DNA of 64,000 nucleotides, taken from positions 7,465 to 71,464 of the forward strand of contig CAZPOP010000006.1 of NCBI GenBank assembly GCA_964588305.1, given 5' to 3'. Origin of the DNA: an uncultured Ignavibacteria bacterium (GTDB lineage Bacteria; Zixibacteria; MSB-5A5; SM1-73). Made by a program: the position numbers. Shown here one piece after another: positions 18,001 to 24,000 of the stretch (the stretch's first letter is position 1; each line of letters begins with the position of its first letter).

Positions 18001-21000
18001 TACACCCCAGGTTCAAGTATTTCATCTTCATCCCCCACACGTTTCACCTCTTTCTGGTATTGGTCTTCTACGAGCCCAGCAGAATGATTGGCTCTTTGAA
18101 CGTTGAACAAATGGGCTCCTTGGCAAGATTCTTTCTGGATCCGGTCTCTTCGCTATTGAAATACGTGGCAGTCCTTTTTGGAGTGCTGTATGAGATTCAT
18201 ATTCAGTTCCACTCCCTGGTGGATTTGATCTATCTGCTTTTGGCCCTCTGGTTTTTGTATCGAGGATACAAAAGGGTCAATGTCCCTACTCTCAAAAGGC
18301 AGGTGCGCATGCTTATCTGGGGGATAAGATCGTCGGTGGGTCTTTATGCCATCGGCTTCATCGTACCGGTCTTCACCCCCCTGGACTTGTCGGACACCTC
18401 CAGGCACTTCCTGACCATAGTGGCTTTGGTGGTGGGGAGCGGGTCGATAGCCTGGGCCATAATCAAACACCATTTCCTGGACGCAAAGCTGATAGTCAGG
18501 CAGAGCTTGGTTTACACCTTAACCACGGCACTTCTTGTGGGAGCATACTTTTTGATCGTCAGGCAGTTTGGAAGATTGATTCAGGATATGATCGGAAAAC
18601 AGACCCCCGTCGTCGACATCGGGTTTGTGATTCTGGCCATAATCTTCTTTCAGCCGATCATGGGACAGCTGGATGACCTGATCAAGAAGTCTTTTATCAA
18701 GGAGAGGTCGGACTATCGTGCCCTGATGGAAACCTTCAGCCAGAAGCTGGTAACCATCTTCGACTTCAAGGAGCTGAGGGAGACGGTAGTTGACGTTTTG
18801 AAAAAAGAGATGTTGGTGGAAAACGTCTATCTCTGTGCGGTCGACCAGGGAAAGTCCGAAGGATCAGAAAAGCGAGAATATATCTTTTTTCCCGATGACC
18901 CTCACCAGGAGAAGGCCCTTTCATTCGGGAAAAGTGATCCCTTGTTTCCCCTTTTGGTGGAGAAGACCAGGCCCATTCTTTTGAGTGACTTGGCCGTGGC
19001 GGAAAGCAAAAGCCCTCTTTTTGGTCTTCTCTCGCGGCTGGGAGTGTTCTTGGTGGTGCCGATGATCAGTCAGGATAAACTGGCAGGGTTCCTCGCTCTG
19101 TCCAAAAAGATCACCCGGTTCAGGTATAGCTACGAGGATATCACTCTTCTGAGGGTATTAGCTAACCAGATGATTGTCGCCATGAACAATGCCCGCCTTT
19201 ATCAGGAATCTTTGGAGAAACAGCTGCTGGAAGAAGAGTTGGCAATGGCCCGTCAGATTCAGTTGGCTCTGCTCCCCAAGGTTTGTCCAAAAAGTGAGTT
19301 GTTCGAGCTCTCTGCGTTCACCCAGCCCGCTCGACAGGTGGGGGGGGACTATTACGATTTTTTCAAGACCGAGGATGATCGGGTGGGGATCGCCATTGCG
19401 GATGCCACAGGCAAGGGTATGCCCGCGGCCATGCTGATGTCCCTGGTGCAGGCTTCCCTGAGAGCGGAGGCAAAAAACAGATTGTGTCCTTCCCGGGTGA
19501 TGCACAACATAAATCAGCTGATTTTCTCTTCAACCACGTCGGACAAGTTCGCCACCATGTTTTATGGCGAATTTGATCCCCAAAGCAGAAAATTGATCTA
19601 TTGTAACGCGGGACACAATTATCCGGTGCTGATTCACCAGGACGGCCAAGCGGAGTTTCTGGACATTGGGGGTTTGATATTGGGAGCTTTCGAGCAATCG
19701 TTATATGAAAAAGGCGAGATACCTCTCCAGAAGGATGACATCCTGTTTTTCTATTCGGATGGGTTAACCGAGAATTTCAATGATAAGGATGAGGAATTTG
19801 GAGAGAAAAGACTCTTGGACATGCTTTTAGGAAATCGCTCTCTTGACCCGGAAAGACTGAAAGAGAAGGTGATCGAGGAGGCAGCTAATTTCACCGGTGG
19901 TGCACCTCCCTGGGATGATTTGACCATAGTGGTTCTCAGGGTGCACTAGATCAAAGTGTCGGGCCGACCATACCGAGGGCTACCCGACTAAAAGACGACA
20001 AGGACACGATATGAAAAAAGCCAAACGTCCTGATGAGATAAGGATCAAAAGACCCAAGACAAGAAGAACCTGGACCAGAAACCCGGTGACCAAGATCAAA
20101 GACAGTGGGAAGATTTACAAAAGGAAAAGGTCGAGGAGTGTCTCGGCTGGTGAGGTGGATTTGACTGAAGGTATCGAAAAGAGCTATCGTTATTGCCCTA
20201 AGTGCGGGGCAGAGATGATCCACAAGAGAATCGATCATAAGGACAGAAAAATCTGTCCGGTCTGCAAATTCGTGTACTATCATAATCCCGTCCCCGCAGC
20301 AGGTGTGGTGATTGAAAAAGATAAAAAGATTCTCTTAGTCAAAAGGAAATATGAGCCTTATAAGGGAGATTGGTGTCTTCCCGCTGGATTTATGGAATAT
20401 GACGAATCGCCGGAGAAGTGCGCCATAAGAGAAACCAAAGAGGAACTCAATGTTGACGTCGAGCTTGACGGTTTGTTTGGCGTGTATTCGGGCAAGGACG
20501 ATCCGAGAACACACGCGGTCCTGGTGATGTACTGGGCAAAAGTGACGGGGGGGAAATTAAAGCCAGGGGATGATGCAGAACAGATCGAGTTTTTCGGAAA
20601 AGACGAACTTCCCCCAAACATCGCCTTTTTAGCCCACAGACAGATTTTAAAGGAATATTTTGAGGATAAGTAACTCGATTTAATGTCGGGTTGATAAAAG
20701 GAGTTATCAACTACCCTTTGGGGTAAGCCTTGGGGGTAAACCCTTTGGGATGGTTGACTTACAAAGTTATTTAATAATGATATGAGAAGATTAGAGTATT
20801 TTAATACCCAAAAGGGTCAGATATACCTTAGACGGCAGAGACAGATGTCCCGTCTGTATTTTTTGCACATTGATCAAGAACCAAAAAGTAAAAATAGTAT
20901 CTCAACTTCCGAAACAATATATTTCCAGAATGAAATTCTCAAAGTATTAAATCAACGTACAAGACGAGCATATCGTTCTCCAGTAATTGTGGAAATTGAT

Positions 21001-24000
21001 TTTTATTCAAATCAAGATAATCCACCAAGTATCTATACTCTTGCTAAAAACTATTTGGATCTACTTGAAGATCCTATTCCACAATCCAAAATTACACGAA
21101 AAAAATTGCTATATAAAGACGATAGGCTTATAAAAATACTAATTGTAAATTATCATTTAGGAATGCCATCTCTTAGATCGGGTATTTCAATCAGGATTGA
21201 TGCCCTATCAAATTTCAGAAGCGATTTAGAATTAGTTGATAGAATCAAAAAGAATGATTTTGAGAAAGATAATGATAACTTTCGGTCATCGTCTCGCGGT
21301 TTTTCCCATTTTAATATGAATGAGTTTGATGATGATGAGGATGATTATTTCGATAATCCAATCACTCAACTAAGGCAGTTAGAGCGCAATAGAACTTCCA
21401 ATATAAAAGTGTTTGGCCGGGAAACTTACGAGATTCAAAGGGATTATTTAATAAAAGAAGTTCAAAAAAGATATTTAAAAATAAGCGAATTAAAAATAGA
21501 TCAATTACTAATGCTATTTTCTGCTTTTTTGAACAAACGAGAATATTATAGGTTTTCTAATTTATTTGTTGATTTAAACAAACGGAATAGGCATTTGATT
21601 ATTCCTCCCCCATTCACAATAGATTTAACTCATGCTCCTTCCCAAAAAGGGGAAAAATCAATTTTCAAAAGTGGTGTAAAAAAAACATTGAATAGCTTCA
21701 AAAACAAATACCCAATTTTGTTTCCGTTAAGAAATCAGATAAGTGTTACCGTGTTGCATGTTCCCCCGAGGAACCAAAGCATCGATTTGGATAATTTGGC
21801 GAGGTACATTATTCCCTTTGTCAATAGTGTCATTATGCCTCCAAGTACATTTTTAAATACCATTGATATTACTCGTATGAAAGATTGTGATATAAAGAAA
21901 AGGTTCTTACAAGATATGAAGAAGATACCAAAGATTCCAAAATATTCGATTACAAACTATCAATTCATAGAATTACCGCGTTTTGATGGTGATCCAAATG
22001 AGGGATATGTTCTTTTGATTTTTGAAGATGGCTTTGTTCATGGCAGTTTATGGCGTAAAATTGATGATATAATAGAAAAATGGGAAGACTATATAGAATG
22101 ATCTGTGCAATGTGGCTACTTGCTTGATGCCGTTCTTTCACTTCCTTTGAGAATTCTCACTCCCAAAGCATCTACAACGTTATATGAAATTGTGGTATCA
22201 GGAAGCAGGAGGAGGTAAGTGTATGAAGCAAGAAAATCAGATGATTGCAGTTTGTGGCTTGGTTTGCGGCGGATGCGACATTCTTGAGGCGACAAATGAT
22301 CCTAAAGTAGCCCAGGGAATTGCAGATTGCTTTAAGAAGGAAAGAAACGAACAGGTAAAGATCGAAGACATCCACTGCTCCGGCTGCAAAGGTGACCGGT
22401 CAGAACATTGGTCTCCAGACTGCTGGATACTTCAATGCTGTGTCGACAAAAAGGGATTGGAATTCTGCTATGAATGTGACGATTTCCCGTGTGAGAAACT
22501 TGAGCGATGGGCTAAATCAAACAAGAGATACGGGGAGGCTCTGACCCGACTCAGAGAGATGGGCGGAAAATAGAGAGATTAGTCTTTTAAGACAAGAAAA
22601 CAGTGATGTTACAAAGTGACCAGAGGTGCCGTTCCATCAGGTAAATAGTGAGCAATGAAACCAGGAGAAATCAGACCGATAGTCATATGTGTTTTCAGGC
22701 ACAAAGACAGGCTGTTTGTGACTGAGGGCTATGATTCTCATAAGAAAGAGACGTTTTATCGACCGCTGGGAGGCGCTATTGAATTCGGCGAGCACAGCCG
22801 CGAGTCTATCATCCGCGAGATACGAGAGGAGATGGGGGTGGAGATCAAGGGCTTAACTTACATCGACTTGATCGAGAATGTCTTCACCTACGATGGCCAG
22901 CCCGGCCACGAGATCGTGCTGGTCTATGAGGCGAACTTTGTCGATCCGAGCTTGTACAAGTTGGCATCGGTCAAATGCAAAGACAATGGCGGCTGGCTTG
23001 CTGCTATGTGGAAGCCAATGGCCGAGTTCCGAGCGGGATCGGCCATCTTGTATCCGGAAGGGCTGCTTGGTGTGCTCGAGCGGAAATCTGTATAACGTCT
23101 GACTCAGATCACGTGGGTCTTGCGGCCAGCCTCTACTCGTCCTGAGGCAACTTCACATGCCATCCTCGGTCGCTTTCACTTTTCAGGGTCAGGGAGCGTC
23201 AGACAGTGCCCTCAAGCTCGGCGACAACGAATGAGGCCATGAACGAGTTGTGTTCTGAGATAAAAACGGTTTTGTTTGACAAGGGGGCTTCCCTTGTTGG
23301 CTTTGCCGATTTGAATCGCTTGCCCGTTGAGGTTCGCGACTCCATGAAATTCGCCGTTTCAATCGCTGTAGCGTTGGATCCGTCCATAATCGCAAATATC
23401 CGCAACGGTCCTACCCGGAAGTACCATTCCGAATACAAAAGGGTTAATGCGCTCTTGTCAGATTTGGGGAAATGCGCTGCAGGCATGATAACCGACTACG
23501 GATATCAGGCGATCTCCCAGGCACCCACAGGCGTGGGAATCGATCCTAAGACGCATAGTACGGTTCTGCCCCACAAAACTGTTGCCACCCGAGCGGGCCT
23601 TGGGTGGATAGGAAAATGTGCTCTTCTGGTGACGGAGGAATATGGCTCCGCGGTTCGAATCAGCACGGTTCTTACTGATGCCCCGTTGGAAACGGCGATT
23701 CCGGTGGATCATTCACGTTGCGGTGATTGCATGGTCTGTGTGAGCGCTTGTCCCGGTTATGCACCCTCGGGTAAGAACTGGAACGTCAATGTTCACCGGG
23801 ATTCCTTCTTTGATGCTTCTGCGTGCGCCAGGGGAGCAGCCCAACGTGCGGTCACGAAAATCGGCGTTGATGATACTATTTGTGGAATATGCATTTCGGT
23901 TTGTCCCTGGACGGTAAGACATATTGAGAGGGAAAGAGGCGTCTGATCAACCAGTGACAGACTGCCCCTGAACTTCACTTCACCCAAACCTTTACTTCTT

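What the first reader, a model, noticed from the sequence alone, without database searches (positions are those of the whole stretch)
20782..22101. AT-rich single-gene island encoding a tandem, single-chain RusA-like resolvase
Base composition drops sharply across exactly one gene, flanked by two NUDIX genes, and a gttgata-N8-tatcaac palindrome sits at its 5' edge (20687-20708). The 439-aa product contains two segments with the RusA pattern (beta-strand ...P.S.K/N..., then PV.[IV].I......[DN]....L.K....D.L). Only the C-terminal copy retains the catalytic IDLDNL (RusA: RDLDNLQKA). The N-terminal copy has SNQDNPPSIYTLAKNYLDLL and is probably inactive. An acidic linker (FDDDEDDYFDNP) joins them. 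RusA is an obligate homodimer, so a fused active/inactive pseudo-dimer would be an undescribed architecture. It could be a prophage remnant or a stand-alone nucleic-acid-targeting (defense) gene.
Basis: partly seen in the sequence, partly recalled or inferred. Interest (0 to 1): 0.7.

Follow-up and report, generated by a model that had tools for sequence, protein, structure and literature searches.

The report
Single-chain double RusA-like nuclease gene
An AT-rich, horizontally acquired gene encodes a member of an undescribed protein family in which two diverged copies of the RusA Holliday-junction-resolvase fold are fused in one chain, with the catalytic residues split between the copies so that probably only one cutting site remains; relatives often sit in anti-phage defence islands.

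Summary
The ORF (20782-22101, +, 439 aa) and the one-gene AT-rich island are real. It is the lowest-GC stretch of the 64-kb window (31% against 48%).

The tandem RusA reading holds:
- Pfam RusA matches the N-terminal domain of family members.
- Phage RusA proteins dominate the viral fold search.

The C domain keeps the equivalents of RusA D70/D72/N73 (invariant D335-L-D337-N338). The N domain keeps the equivalents of D90/D91 and K76 (D113, invariant D114, invariant K89). In RusA the metal site forms across the dimer interface, from D70/D72 of one subunit and D91 of the other. The fusion should therefore have one complete composite site and one degenerate site. This is an inference: covariation supports it, but I could not obtain model coordinates.

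The family has about 740 clusters at 50% identity, no name and no paper. It has no phage copies and no conserved partner gene. It is patchy across phyla and often lies in defence islands or integrative elements.

The palindrome is unremarkable and there are no att-like repeats. Verdict: new variant of a known kind. Function is untested.

The parts
20782..22101 (+). ORF of 439 aa (stop included): single-chain tandem RusA-fold protein, a member of an unnamed family
   Evidence: ORF. There are 174 homologues and 741 cluster representatives, nearly all full-length at 400-450 aa. The AF2 model has pLDDT 87.6 and pTM 0.89. dN/dS against the L001 orthologue is 0.215.
20782..21261 (+). N-terminal RusA-like domain (residues ~1-160; beta-alpha-beta-alpha-beta-beta-alpha)
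   Evidence: Pfam RusA PF05866 matches this region in family members: P0091 28.2 bits and P0061 24.7 bits against a cut-off of 22.8, and 18 of 44 members at E<=1. Secondary structure.
21040..21066 (+). LAKNYLDLL (residues 87-95), helix alpha-2 of the N domain. K89 is the RusA K76 position and D93 the D80 position. The D70/D72 positions are S83 and Y85, so the acidic pair is lost
   Evidence: K89, Y91, D93, L94 and L95 are invariant in 44 sequences. Register from hhalign of N against C and of C against RusA.
21118..21123 (+). D113-D114, just before strand beta-4 of the N domain; these are the RusA D90-D91 positions
   Evidence: D114 is invariant. The motif DDRQIK matches RusA DDAQVV, read directly from the sequences.
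21262..21597 (+). Helical middle region (residues ~161-272). It has no counterpart in RusA and is the fastest-evolving part
   Evidence: Helices at 172-186, 193-235, 239-250 and 258-272. dN/dS is 0.54 against 0.10 for the N domain and 0.28 for the C domain. It shows no similarity to either RusA-like half.
21325..21360 (+). Acidic loop FDDDEDDYFDNP (residues 182-193)
   Evidence: Sequence. Residues 161-190 have the lowest model confidence (pLDDT 53-62). This part of the family alignment is variable and full of gaps.
21598..22098 (+). C-terminal RusA-like domain (residues 273-439), with a helical insertion of about 35 residues between alpha-2 and beta-4
21784..21804 (+). D335-L-D337-N338-L-A-R341, matching RusA D70-L-D72-N73-L-Q-K76; this is the metal-binding DxD of the C domain
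   Evidence: D335, L336, D337, N338 and A340 are invariant; L339 and R341 are at least 90% conserved. Aligned to RusA DLDNLQK.
20690..20711 (.). Palindrome GTTGATA-N8-TATCAAC, 17 nt after the upstream NUDIX stop codon. Probably incidental, or a weak hairpin at the end of the NUDIX gene
   Evidence: Exact position. The window has 70 comparable hairpins. Not conserved in L001. Not called as a terminator.
20715..20750 (.). Short tandem repeats CCTTTGGGGTAAG / CCTTGGGGGTAAA / CCCTTTGGGAT in the 108-nt upstream spacer
   Evidence: family D11, and direct reading. Function unknown. Homology with L001 starts only 14 nt before the start codon.

Best explanation
The gene encodes a monomeric 'pseudo-dimer' of the RusA nuclease fold. 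Two diverged RusA-like domains (residues ~1-160 and ~273-439) are joined by a helical region of about 110 residues.

Catalytic residues are split between the domains. The C domain carries the equivalents of RusA D70, D72 and N73, with R341 in place of K76. The N domain carries the equivalents of D90/D91 (D113, D114) and K76 (K89). In RusA the Mg2+ site lies at the dimer interface and uses D70/D72 of one subunit and D91 of the other.

If the two domains pack like a RusA dimer, the protein has one complete composite active site: D335 and D337 from the C domain plus D114 from the N domain. The mirror site (S83/Y85 from the N domain plus the S389 region from the C domain) is degenerate.

The most likely activity is therefore Mg2+-dependent, structure-selective DNA cleavage that cuts one strand per molecule. 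That would be a nick on a branched or distorted substrate, not the paired symmetrical cuts of a resolvase.

The gene is a stand-alone, horizontally mobile accessory gene. Its relatives are frequent in defence islands and in the cargo of integrative elements, so the most likely role is defence against phages or other mobile DNA.

Shown: the two RusA-like domains, the split conservation pattern, purifying selection and the genomic contexts. Inferred: the domain packing, the single composite site, the nuclease activity and the defence role.
For: Fold and homology:
- Pfam RusA matches the N domain of family members, two of them above the gathering score.
- In the BFVD Foldseek search, hits named RusA/Rus resolvase dominate the top 50, interspersed with entries that carry no name.
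- hhalign of C half against RusA gives P 8.6e-4, and N half against C half gives P 0.003, both colinear.

Split catalytic residues:
- D335, L336, D337, N338, D114 and K89 are invariant in 44 sequences that are 34-78% identical to the query.

RusA site composition:
- In the D70N structure, N70 of one subunit hydrogen-bonds to D91 of the other. The cation site is described as D70, D72 and D91 (PMC1636454).

Domain packing:
- pTM is 0.89 for the whole chain.
- In mean-field DCA on 224 sequences (Neff 202), four N-C pairs are among the 16 strongest of all pairs: K118-E397, T86-R341, Y85-S389 and S41-S355, scoring 1.47-1.01.
- When N/C pairing was shuffled, the maxima were 0.73 and 0.91.
- T86-R341 and Y85-S389 link the start of N-domain helix alpha-2 to the C-domain K76 position and pre-beta-4 segment. 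This is the mirror image of the D70(A)-D91(B) contact in RusA.

Selection:
- dN/dS is 0.215 against the L001 orthologue.

Context:
- No conserved neighbour gene.
- Shedu SduA lies directly upstream in L008 and L010.
- A type II CBASS operon ends 2 nt before the gene, and a NACHT gene follows it, in L023.
- Type I R-M genes upstream and a PLD/SIR2/HerA cluster downstream in L024.
- ThsB-TIR and a methyltransferase in L025.
- An SNF2-PLD helicase and an Eco57I-type methyltransferase in L003.
- PRTase-CE and ORC-CDC6-like genes in L004.
- An Avs4/NACHT-like giant protein in L018.
- Integrases, ArdA or ICE genes in L026, L019 and L020.
- The gene is more AT-rich than its surroundings in 17 of 18 loci.
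- The distribution is patchy: Bacteroidota, Planctomycetota, Pseudomonadota and a Bacilli MAG.
Against: - The window protein itself has no Pfam, NCBIfam or PADLOC hit, and only an insignificant PHROG match (E 0.078).
- A narrow enterobacterial RusA profile did not align correctly with the N half.
- I could not read model coordinates, so RusA-dimer-like packing and the D114 to D335/D337 distance are unverified.
- The DCA rests on Neff of about 200 and only two null shuffles.
- The residues of the proposed live site are invariant, so they cannot show covariation themselves.
- K76 is replaced by R in the C domain.
- Invariant K89 and D93 in the supposedly dead site are not explained by a one-site model.
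- In this window and in L001 the neighbours are ordinary genes (partner-switching module, NUDIX, DUF3795), not defence genes.
- The defence association was not tested against a genomic background.
- No activity data exist.
Confidence: 0.55

Rival explanations
1. The C-terminal copy is a self-sufficient active RusA domain, and the N-terminal copy is a catalytically dead scaffold that only replaces the second subunit of the dimer.
For: Only the C domain has DLDN. The N domain has S83 and Y85 at the D70/D72 positions.
Against: The C domain has no conserved acidic residue at the D90/D91 position. D90/D91 is listed as critical for RusA catalysis, and D91 is part of the cation site contributed across the interface (PMC1636454). 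D114 in the N domain is invariant, which a pure scaffold would not require.
Confidence: 0.15
2. A non-catalytic protein that binds junctions or branched DNA. Both sites are degenerate, and the protein acts as a sensor, blocker or recruiter rather than a nuclease.
For: Neither domain has the full residue set. K76 is R in the C domain. The N-domain EPKSK motif, at the place of the RusA DNA-contacting residues 13-16, is conserved.
Against: A DxDN motif plus a partner Asp that stay invariant across sequences 34-78% identical to the query is the pattern expected of a metal site. There is no conserved partner effector gene next to it that it could recruit.
Confidence: 0.12
3. A true Holliday junction resolvase. 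Two fusion proteins associate, or one molecule cuts twice in succession, giving paired incisions. The protein would serve recombination or repair of the host or of an integrative element, not defence.
For: RusA fold in both halves. Some copies sit beside integrases, recombinases or RadC on integrative elements. In this window the context is ordinary genes, and the position is conserved in a relative.
Against: The distribution is very patchy: 13 loci in a motif scan of 185,579 species genomes. Such rarity does not fit a core repair function. There are no phage copies although RusA is typically a phage gene. The asymmetry of the residue pattern argues against symmetrical dual incision by one molecule.
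Confidence: 0.13
4. Decayed prophage remnant carrying a duplicated rusA.
For: RusA is commonly prophage-borne, and the gene is an AT-rich island.
Against: No match in phage genomes or IMG/VR. No phage genes or att-like repeats flank it. The full-length architecture is conserved in 741 clusters. The gene is under purifying selection. The gene occupies the same position in L001, with the same protein divergence as its neighbours: 78% against 72-79%.
Confidence: 0.03

Closest known systems
RusA Holliday junction resolvase (E. coli DLP12 prophage; Pfam PF05866; PDB 1Q8R, 2H8C/2H8E)
   Same: - Same fold in both halves: a mixed beta-sheet flanked by two helices, and the top structural hit in three searches.
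- The D-L-D-N-L motif at the start of helix alpha-2 (C domain).
- The DD-x-Q-hydrophobic motif before strand beta-4 and the Lys on alpha-2 (N domain).
- A two-domain unit that covariation suggests packs like the RusA dimer.
   Different: - One chain of 439 aa instead of two chains of 120 aa.
- A helical region of about 110 residues between the copies, and an insertion of about 35 residues in the C copy.
- Catalytic residues are split between the copies, so at most one site is complete.
- R replaces K76 in the DLDN-bearing copy.
- It lacks the Arg-rich 66-69 stretch and the long 15-28 loop.
- It is not phage-borne.
- The window protein itself is below every Pfam threshold.
Monomeric (tandem-repeat) LAGLIDADG homing endonucleases such as I-SceI and I-AniI, compared with the homodimeric I-CreI (own knowledge, not tested here)
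   Same: The evolutionary route is the same: a homodimeric nuclease becomes a single-chain pseudo-dimer by gene duplication and fusion. This frees the two halves to diverge and to recognise asymmetric substrates.
   Different: The fold and chemistry are unrelated. Monomeric LAGLIDADG enzymes usually keep two active sites. Here one of the two appears to have been lost.
Heterodimeric structure-selective nucleases with one live and one dead subunit, such as Mus81-Eme1 and XPF-ERCC1 (own knowledge, not tested here)
   Same: A pseudo-symmetric pair of homologous nuclease domains with a single functional active site, cutting one strand of a branched DNA.
   Different: The fold is different (ERCC4/PD-(D/E)XK-like). 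They are two polypeptides. In those enzymes the live site lies within one subunit, whereas here it is proposed to be built from both halves.
Stand-alone single-gene defence nucleases of defence islands, such as Shedu SduA
   Same: A single gene with no conserved partner, patchy distribution, more AT-rich than the host, and located in defence islands. SduA itself is the immediate neighbour in two loci.
   Different: No sequence or fold relationship. No PADLOC model matches. A defence function has not been shown for this family.

Membership tests
RusA family (Pfam PF05866) | Sequence match to the family profile above the curated gathering score | tested here: inconclusive
   The window protein has no hit at E<=1. 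Among relatives, 18 of 44 match at E<=1, always in the N domain. P0091 (28.2 bits) and P0061 (24.7 bits) exceed the 22.8-bit cut-off. No Pfam match to the C domain was listed for any of the 10 members examined individually.
RusA family (Pfam PF05866) | [quoted passage not shown] | tested here: met
RusA family (Pfam PF05866) | All catalytic residues (D70, D72, K76, D90/D91) present in each subunit | tested here: not met
   The N domain has S83, Y85, K89 and D113-D114. The C domain has D335, D337 and R341, with no acidic residue at the D90/D91 position. The full set exists only across the two domains together.
RusA family (Pfam PF05866) | Homodimer of ~120-aa subunits with two symmetrical active sites | tested here: not met
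   The protein is a single 439-aa chain with two non-identical copies. Dimer-like packing of the copies is suggested by pTM 0.89 and by covariation, but was not checked on coordinates.
RusA family (Pfam PF05866) | Mg2+-dependent paired cleavage of Holliday junctions; rescue of ruv mutants | not testable with these tools
   This needs biochemistry and genetics.
RusA family (Pfam PF05866) | Typical location in phage or prophage replication/recombination modules | tested here: not met
   No tblastn hit in 50,697 phage genomes. None in IMG/VR by motif scan. No phage genes next to it in the window.
Known anti-phage defence systems (PADLOC-DB v2) | Match to a model of a known or candidate defence protein | tested here: not met
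   No PADLOC family at E<=1.
Defence-island resident genes (guilt by association) | Homologues lie next to known defence systems more often than expected | tested here: inconclusive
   Recognised defence genes lie within about 7 kb in at least 10 of 22 independent loci: SduA, CBASS, type I R-M, SIR2/HerA, ThsB-TIR, SNF2-PLD with a methyltransferase, PRTase-CE/ORC-CDC6, and Avs/NACHT. No background rate was computed. The window copy itself has ordinary neighbours.

The most novel reading that the evidence does not exclude
This is the founding member of a new class of stand-alone defence nucleases: a natural single-chain RusA whose only active site is assembled from two different half-domains. 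It would recognise branched phage or plasmid replication and recombination intermediates and nick or break them. The split residue pattern would also give the first evolutionary proof that the RusA metal site is composite across the dimer interface. No metal has ever been seen in RusA crystals (PMC1636454).
Probability: 0.3. Interest if true: 0.8.

Novelty: new variant of a known kind. Interest (0 to 1): 0.62.

Why it matters
RusA is a textbook obligate homodimer that makes two symmetrical cuts. A natural fusion in which the two copies have each lost a different part of the catalytic set has three consequences:
1. It is independent evolutionary evidence for how the RusA active site is built across the interface. 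Crystallography left this open because bound Mg2+ was never observed.
2. It predicts a monomeric, asymmetric, branch-selective nicking enzyme. That would be a new tool-like activity, at a time when RusA is already being engineered for DNA targeting (PMC12120656).
3. It adds an unnamed family of about 740 clusters to the list of candidate single-gene defence or MGE-conflict genes. None of the libraries searched here (Pfam, NCBIfam, PHROGs, PADLOC) recognises it.

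Tried and rejected
- att-like direct repeats around the gene: only short chance-level repeats, none bracketing the island.
- Palindrome as a meaningful site: rejected as ordinary and not conserved.
- Promoter and terminator scans: no more sites than in shuffled sequence.
- Prophage origin: no phage or IMG/VR matches.
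- Conserved partner gene or operon: an all-against-all comparison of neighbours in 18 loci found none.
- Recent insertion: rejected. The L001 orthologue sits at the same place with the same protein divergence as the flanking genes.
- PDB sequence searches: only insignificant or spurious matches, to TFIIF and to the protein A B-domain.
- Narrow E. coli-type RusA profile against the N half: misregistered and not significant.
- The search for related loci with the 44-sequence alignment failed. With the single protein it found nothing. It worked with a 13-sequence alignment.
- Exact-sequence look-ups of the window protein and of P0001 found no record.
- Cluster look-up gave no names or organism. 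The source organism of the window remains unidentified.
- The afdb50 fold library was unavailable.
- Literature searches for tandem, single-chain or defence-linked RusA found nothing relevant.
- No tool returned model coordinates, so the key distance measurement could not be made. Covariation analysis was used as a substitute.

Full report
**The observation**

The window has an ATG-initiated ORF at 20782-22101 on the + strand that encodes 439 aa. GC falls to 0.30-0.34 across it, from 0.45-0.52 upstream and 0.46-0.55 downstream. The gene is 31.5% GC, against 47.6% and 49.8% for the 5-kb flanks. The lowest-GC 1320-nt stretch of the whole 64-kb window is 20759-22078, at 31.2%. The window mean is 48.1% with sd 3.4, and the next lowest stretch is 40%. 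So the island is real, spans one gene, and lies about five standard deviations below the mean.

The quoted peptide motifs are all present. Two details need correcting:
- The palindrome GTTGATA-N8-TATCAAC lies at 20690-20711. It is ordinary, because the window contains 70 perfect 7-bp hairpins with loops of 3-10 nt. It is not conserved in the syntenic relative.
- Only the upstream neighbour is a NUDIX gene. Downstream come a DUF3795 gene and then the second NUDIX gene.

No direct repeats bracket the island.

**A real, conserved, unnamed family**

The protein has no hit in Pfam, NCBIfam or PADLOC, and only an insignificant PHROG match. It does have 174 homologues at E<=1e-3 in the 90%-clustered collection. 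Nearly all are full-length proteins of 400-450 aa labelled hypothetical. A profile search of 1.84 billion representatives found 741 clusters at E<=1e-3, of which 323 are at E<=1e-30; those listed have the same length and cover the whole profile.

A 44-sequence alignment (34-78% identity to the query) has two blocks of invariant residues:
- P82, K89, Y91, D93, L94, L95 and D114 in the N-terminal part.
- D335, L336, D337, N338 and A340 in the C-terminal part.

Against its closest relative with known context (L001, 78% identity), the gene has dN/dS of 0.215. It is therefore a functional gene.

**Both halves are RusA-like**

N half:
- When the 44 members are scanned one by one against Pfam, RusA (PF05866) is by far the most frequent family, matching 18 of 44 at E<=1.
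- In all ten members inspected, the match lies on residues ~37-137 and covers profile positions ~19-122 of 124.
- P0091 (28.2 bits) and P0061 (24.7 bits) exceed the 22.8-bit gathering score.

Structure:
- AlphaFold2 with the family alignment gives a confident model: pLDDT 87.6 and pTM 0.89.
- It shows two beta-alpha-beta-alpha-beta-beta-alpha domains (about 1-160 and 273-439) and a helical region between them.

C half:
- hhalign of an E. coli-type RusA profile against the C-half profile is colinear over 102 columns, with DLDNL in register (P 8.6e-4).

Other evidence:
- Foldseek against BFVD returns, among its top 50 hits, a clear majority named phage RusA/Rus resolvases, interspersed with unnamed entries. 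The named RusA hits are single-domain proteins of about 125-240 aa.
- The N-half and C-half profiles align with each other over 125 columns (P 0.003). Either half against the middle region gives 0.21 and 0.35.

Each line of evidence is modest on its own, but they are independent and agree. The tandem RusA reading stands.

**The catalytic residues are split, not one live and one dead copy**

The alignments, together with the motifs themselves, give the following mapping.

| RusA residue | N domain | C domain |
|---|---|---|
| D70 | S83 | D335 |
| D72 | Y85 | D337 |
| N73 | T86 | N338 |
| K76 | K89 | R341 |
| D80 | D93 | P345 |
| D90-D91 | D113-D114 | no conserved acidic residue (the segment is PKIPKYS) |

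The RusA D90-D91 motif reads DDAQVV, and the N-domain counterpart reads DDRLIK in the window protein (DDRQIK in the family consensus).

The RusA literature lists D70, D72, K76 and D90/D91 as critical. It describes the cation-binding site as D70, D72 and D91. In the 1.2-A D70N structure, N70 of one subunit hydrogen-bonds to D91 of the other, at a flexible dimer interface (PMC1636454). So the site is built across the interface.

A fusion in which the C copy keeps only the DxD(N) part and the N copy keeps only the D91 part is what would be expected if one of the two symmetrical sites were kept and the other allowed to decay. The N copy is not merely inactive, because its invariant D114 is probably the third carboxylate of the only remaining site.

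**Do the two copies pack like a RusA dimer?**

No tool returned model coordinates, so this key point is inferred. Two observations support it.

First, pTM of 0.89 for the whole chain indicates a confidently fixed domain arrangement.

Second, I ran a mean-field direct-coupling analysis on 224 full-length family members (Neff 202). The strongest intra-domain couplings are those expected for the fold, such as Y64-I139, I72-I117, L92-I117, A88-V122, I320-F414 and I344-I390.

Four N-C pairs are among the 16 strongest of all pairs:
- K118-E397, score 1.47, rank 3.
- T86-R341, score 1.12, rank 10.
- Y85-S389, score 1.02, rank 13.
- S41-S355, score 1.01, rank 16.

When the pairing of N and C halves was shuffled, the largest N-C scores were 0.73 and 0.91.

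T86-R341 links the N-domain N73 position to the C-domain K76 position. Y85-S389 links the N-domain D72 position to the C-domain segment just before strand beta-4. This is the degenerate mirror image of the D70/D72(A)-D91(B) contact in RusA. The residues of the proposed live site are invariant, so they cannot covary.

The analysis is underpowered: Neff is about 200 and there were only two shuffles. I treat it as supportive only.

**Where the gene lives**

In this window the neighbours are ordinary genes: a STAS/HATPase/SpoIIE partner-switching module, NUDIX, DUF3795, NUDIX and a methyltransferase.

A related metagenomic contig (L001) has the orthologue at the same place, with a nitroreductase gene inserted upstream. 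The orthologue is 77.9% identical. The flanking proteins are 72-79% identical. The gene is therefore an old resident, not a recent insertion, yet it has stayed AT-rich: GC3 is 0.27, against 0.49-0.62 for its neighbours.

Across 18 other loci the gene is more AT-rich than its surroundings in 17. No neighbour gene is conserved.

Hosts are scattered: Planctomycetaceae, Bacteroidales, Cytophagaceae, Maribellus, Fulvivirga, Marinilabilia, a Bacilli MAG, a proteobacterial MAG and Acidovorax. Distant full-length copies (26% identity) lie on two Pantoea plasmids, next to an integrase, a recombinase and ICE genes. There is no copy in 50,697 phage genomes or in IMG/VR.

Many copies lie in defence islands or in the cargo of mobile elements:

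| Locus | Neighbouring genes |
|---|---|
| L008, L010 | Shedu SduA immediately upstream |
| L023 | Complete type II CBASS (patatin, CD-NTase, E1/E2, JAB) ending 2 nt before the gene, NACHT protein after it, integrase nearby |
| L024 | Type I R-M upstream; DUF4411, PLD, SIR2 and HerA downstream |
| L025 | ThsB-TIR and a methyltransferase |
| L003 | SNF2-PLD helicase and an Eco57I-type methyltransferase |
| L004 | PRTase-CE and ORC-CDC6-like genes |
| L018 | Avs4/NACHT-like giant protein |
| L026 | Four tyrosine recombinases, RadC, ArdA and Toprim/DUF3945 genes of a conjugative transposon; the protein is indexed in 62 blocks of the collection |

Two further loci carry type I restriction genes. 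In total, at least 10 of 22 independent loci have recognised defence genes within about 7 kb. I did not compute a background rate, so this is suggestive and not a statistical result.

**Most likely mechanism**

Shown:
- Two RusA-fold domains in one chain.
- Complementary conservation of the catalytic residues.
- Purifying selection.
- A stand-alone, horizontally mobile gene that is often defence-linked.

Inferred:
- The two domains pack like a RusA dimer.
- C-domain D335 and D337, with N338 and R341, together with N-domain D114 form a single Mg2+ site.
- The mirror site is dead.
- The protein acts as a monomeric, structure-selective DNA endonuclease that cuts one strand of a branched or distorted DNA. 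It does not make the paired cuts of a resolvase.
- Its biological role is defence against phage or other mobile DNA, for instance by attacking branched replication or recombination intermediates.

The helical middle region and its acidic, poorly ordered loop have no RusA counterpart, and their role is unknown. They might position DNA or act as an autoinhibitory DNA mimic, but that is speculation. Invariant K89 and D93 in the 'dead' half-site are not explained by the model.

**Rivals**

- A self-sufficient C domain with a scaffold N domain. This conflicts with the missing D91 equivalent in the C domain and with the invariance of D114.
- A non-catalytic junction binder. This is hard to reconcile with an invariant DxDN motif plus a partner Asp.
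- A true resolvase acting as a dimer of fusions. This remains possible, but rarity and patchiness argue against a core repair role.
- A prophage remnant. This is effectively excluded.

**Comparison with what is known, and novelty**

The protein resembles RusA in fold and probably in chemistry. It fails several defining features of the RusA family:
- The window protein has no profile match.
- Neither domain has the full catalytic set.
- It is not a homodimer of small subunits.
- It is not found in phages.

It is best described as a new variant of a known kind: a single-chain, asymmetric derivative of the RusA fold that forms its own family. The evolutionary route parallels monomeric LAGLIDADG endonucleases and one-live-site pairs such as Mus81-Eme1 (own knowledge), but I found no report of it for RusA.

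Interest is moderate to high. The architecture is clean and testable, it bears on the unresolved composition of the RusA metal site, and it nominates an unnamed family as a candidate defence gene. Function remains unproven.

Noticed in passing
window 20782-22101 compared with L001 6001-7317: Synonymous divergence of the gene from its syntenic orthologue is much lower than that of the flanking genes: dS 0.54 against 1.2-2.1. Non-synonymous divergence is the same: dN 0.117 against 0.115-0.142. The deficit is concentrated in the middle and C-terminal parts (dS 0.26 and 0.42, against 1.05 for the N domain). It could reflect a later exchange of part of the gene between lineages, or constraint on synonymous sites in this AT-rich gene.
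   Followed up: partly
window 20713-20725 and 20805-20817: A 13-nt inverted repeat (ACCCTTTGGGGTA / TACCCAAAAGGGT, 92% complementary) brackets the start codon at 20782. The upstream arm is part of a short tandem CCTTTGGGGTAA(G/A) repeat. It could form an mRNA structure that occludes the start, or it could be chance.
   Followed up: no
window 24834-25853 (+): A 339-aa ORF made largely of tandem Gly-rich repeats of about 20 residues (..NGIAIGGIGLAAE..), with a very strong local GC skew of up to 0.42.
   Followed up: no
L001 5091-5744 compared with window 20674-20781: The relative has a nitroreductase gene between the NUDIX gene and the RusA-like gene that is absent from the window. Downstream of DUF3795 the two contigs also differ. 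This spot gains and loses genes in both lineages.
   Followed up: partly
L016 8001-9264 (Marinilabilia salmonicolor): The family member is split into two overlapping ORFs (8001-8891 and 8839-9264). This suggests a frameshift, so a pseudogene or a sequencing error.
   Followed up: no
L023 2774-8281: The family member starts 2 nt after the JAB gene of a complete type II CBASS operon (patatin, CD-NTase, E1/E2, JAB) on the same strand. It may be co-transcribed with that operon. A NACHT gene follows.
   Followed up: no
L006 9200-11032 and L017 9269-11149 (two Planctomycetaceae MAGs): In both loci a gene of about 610-630 aa overlaps the end of the family member by a few nucleotides on the same strand. 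One has weak squalene-cyclase-like and Trans_reg_C matches, the other a DUF2934 match. The two did not cluster as homologues at the thresholds used.
   Followed up: partly
window 47508-47581 (-): This tRNA gene is the only Rfam match at gathering threshold in the window.
   Followed up: no
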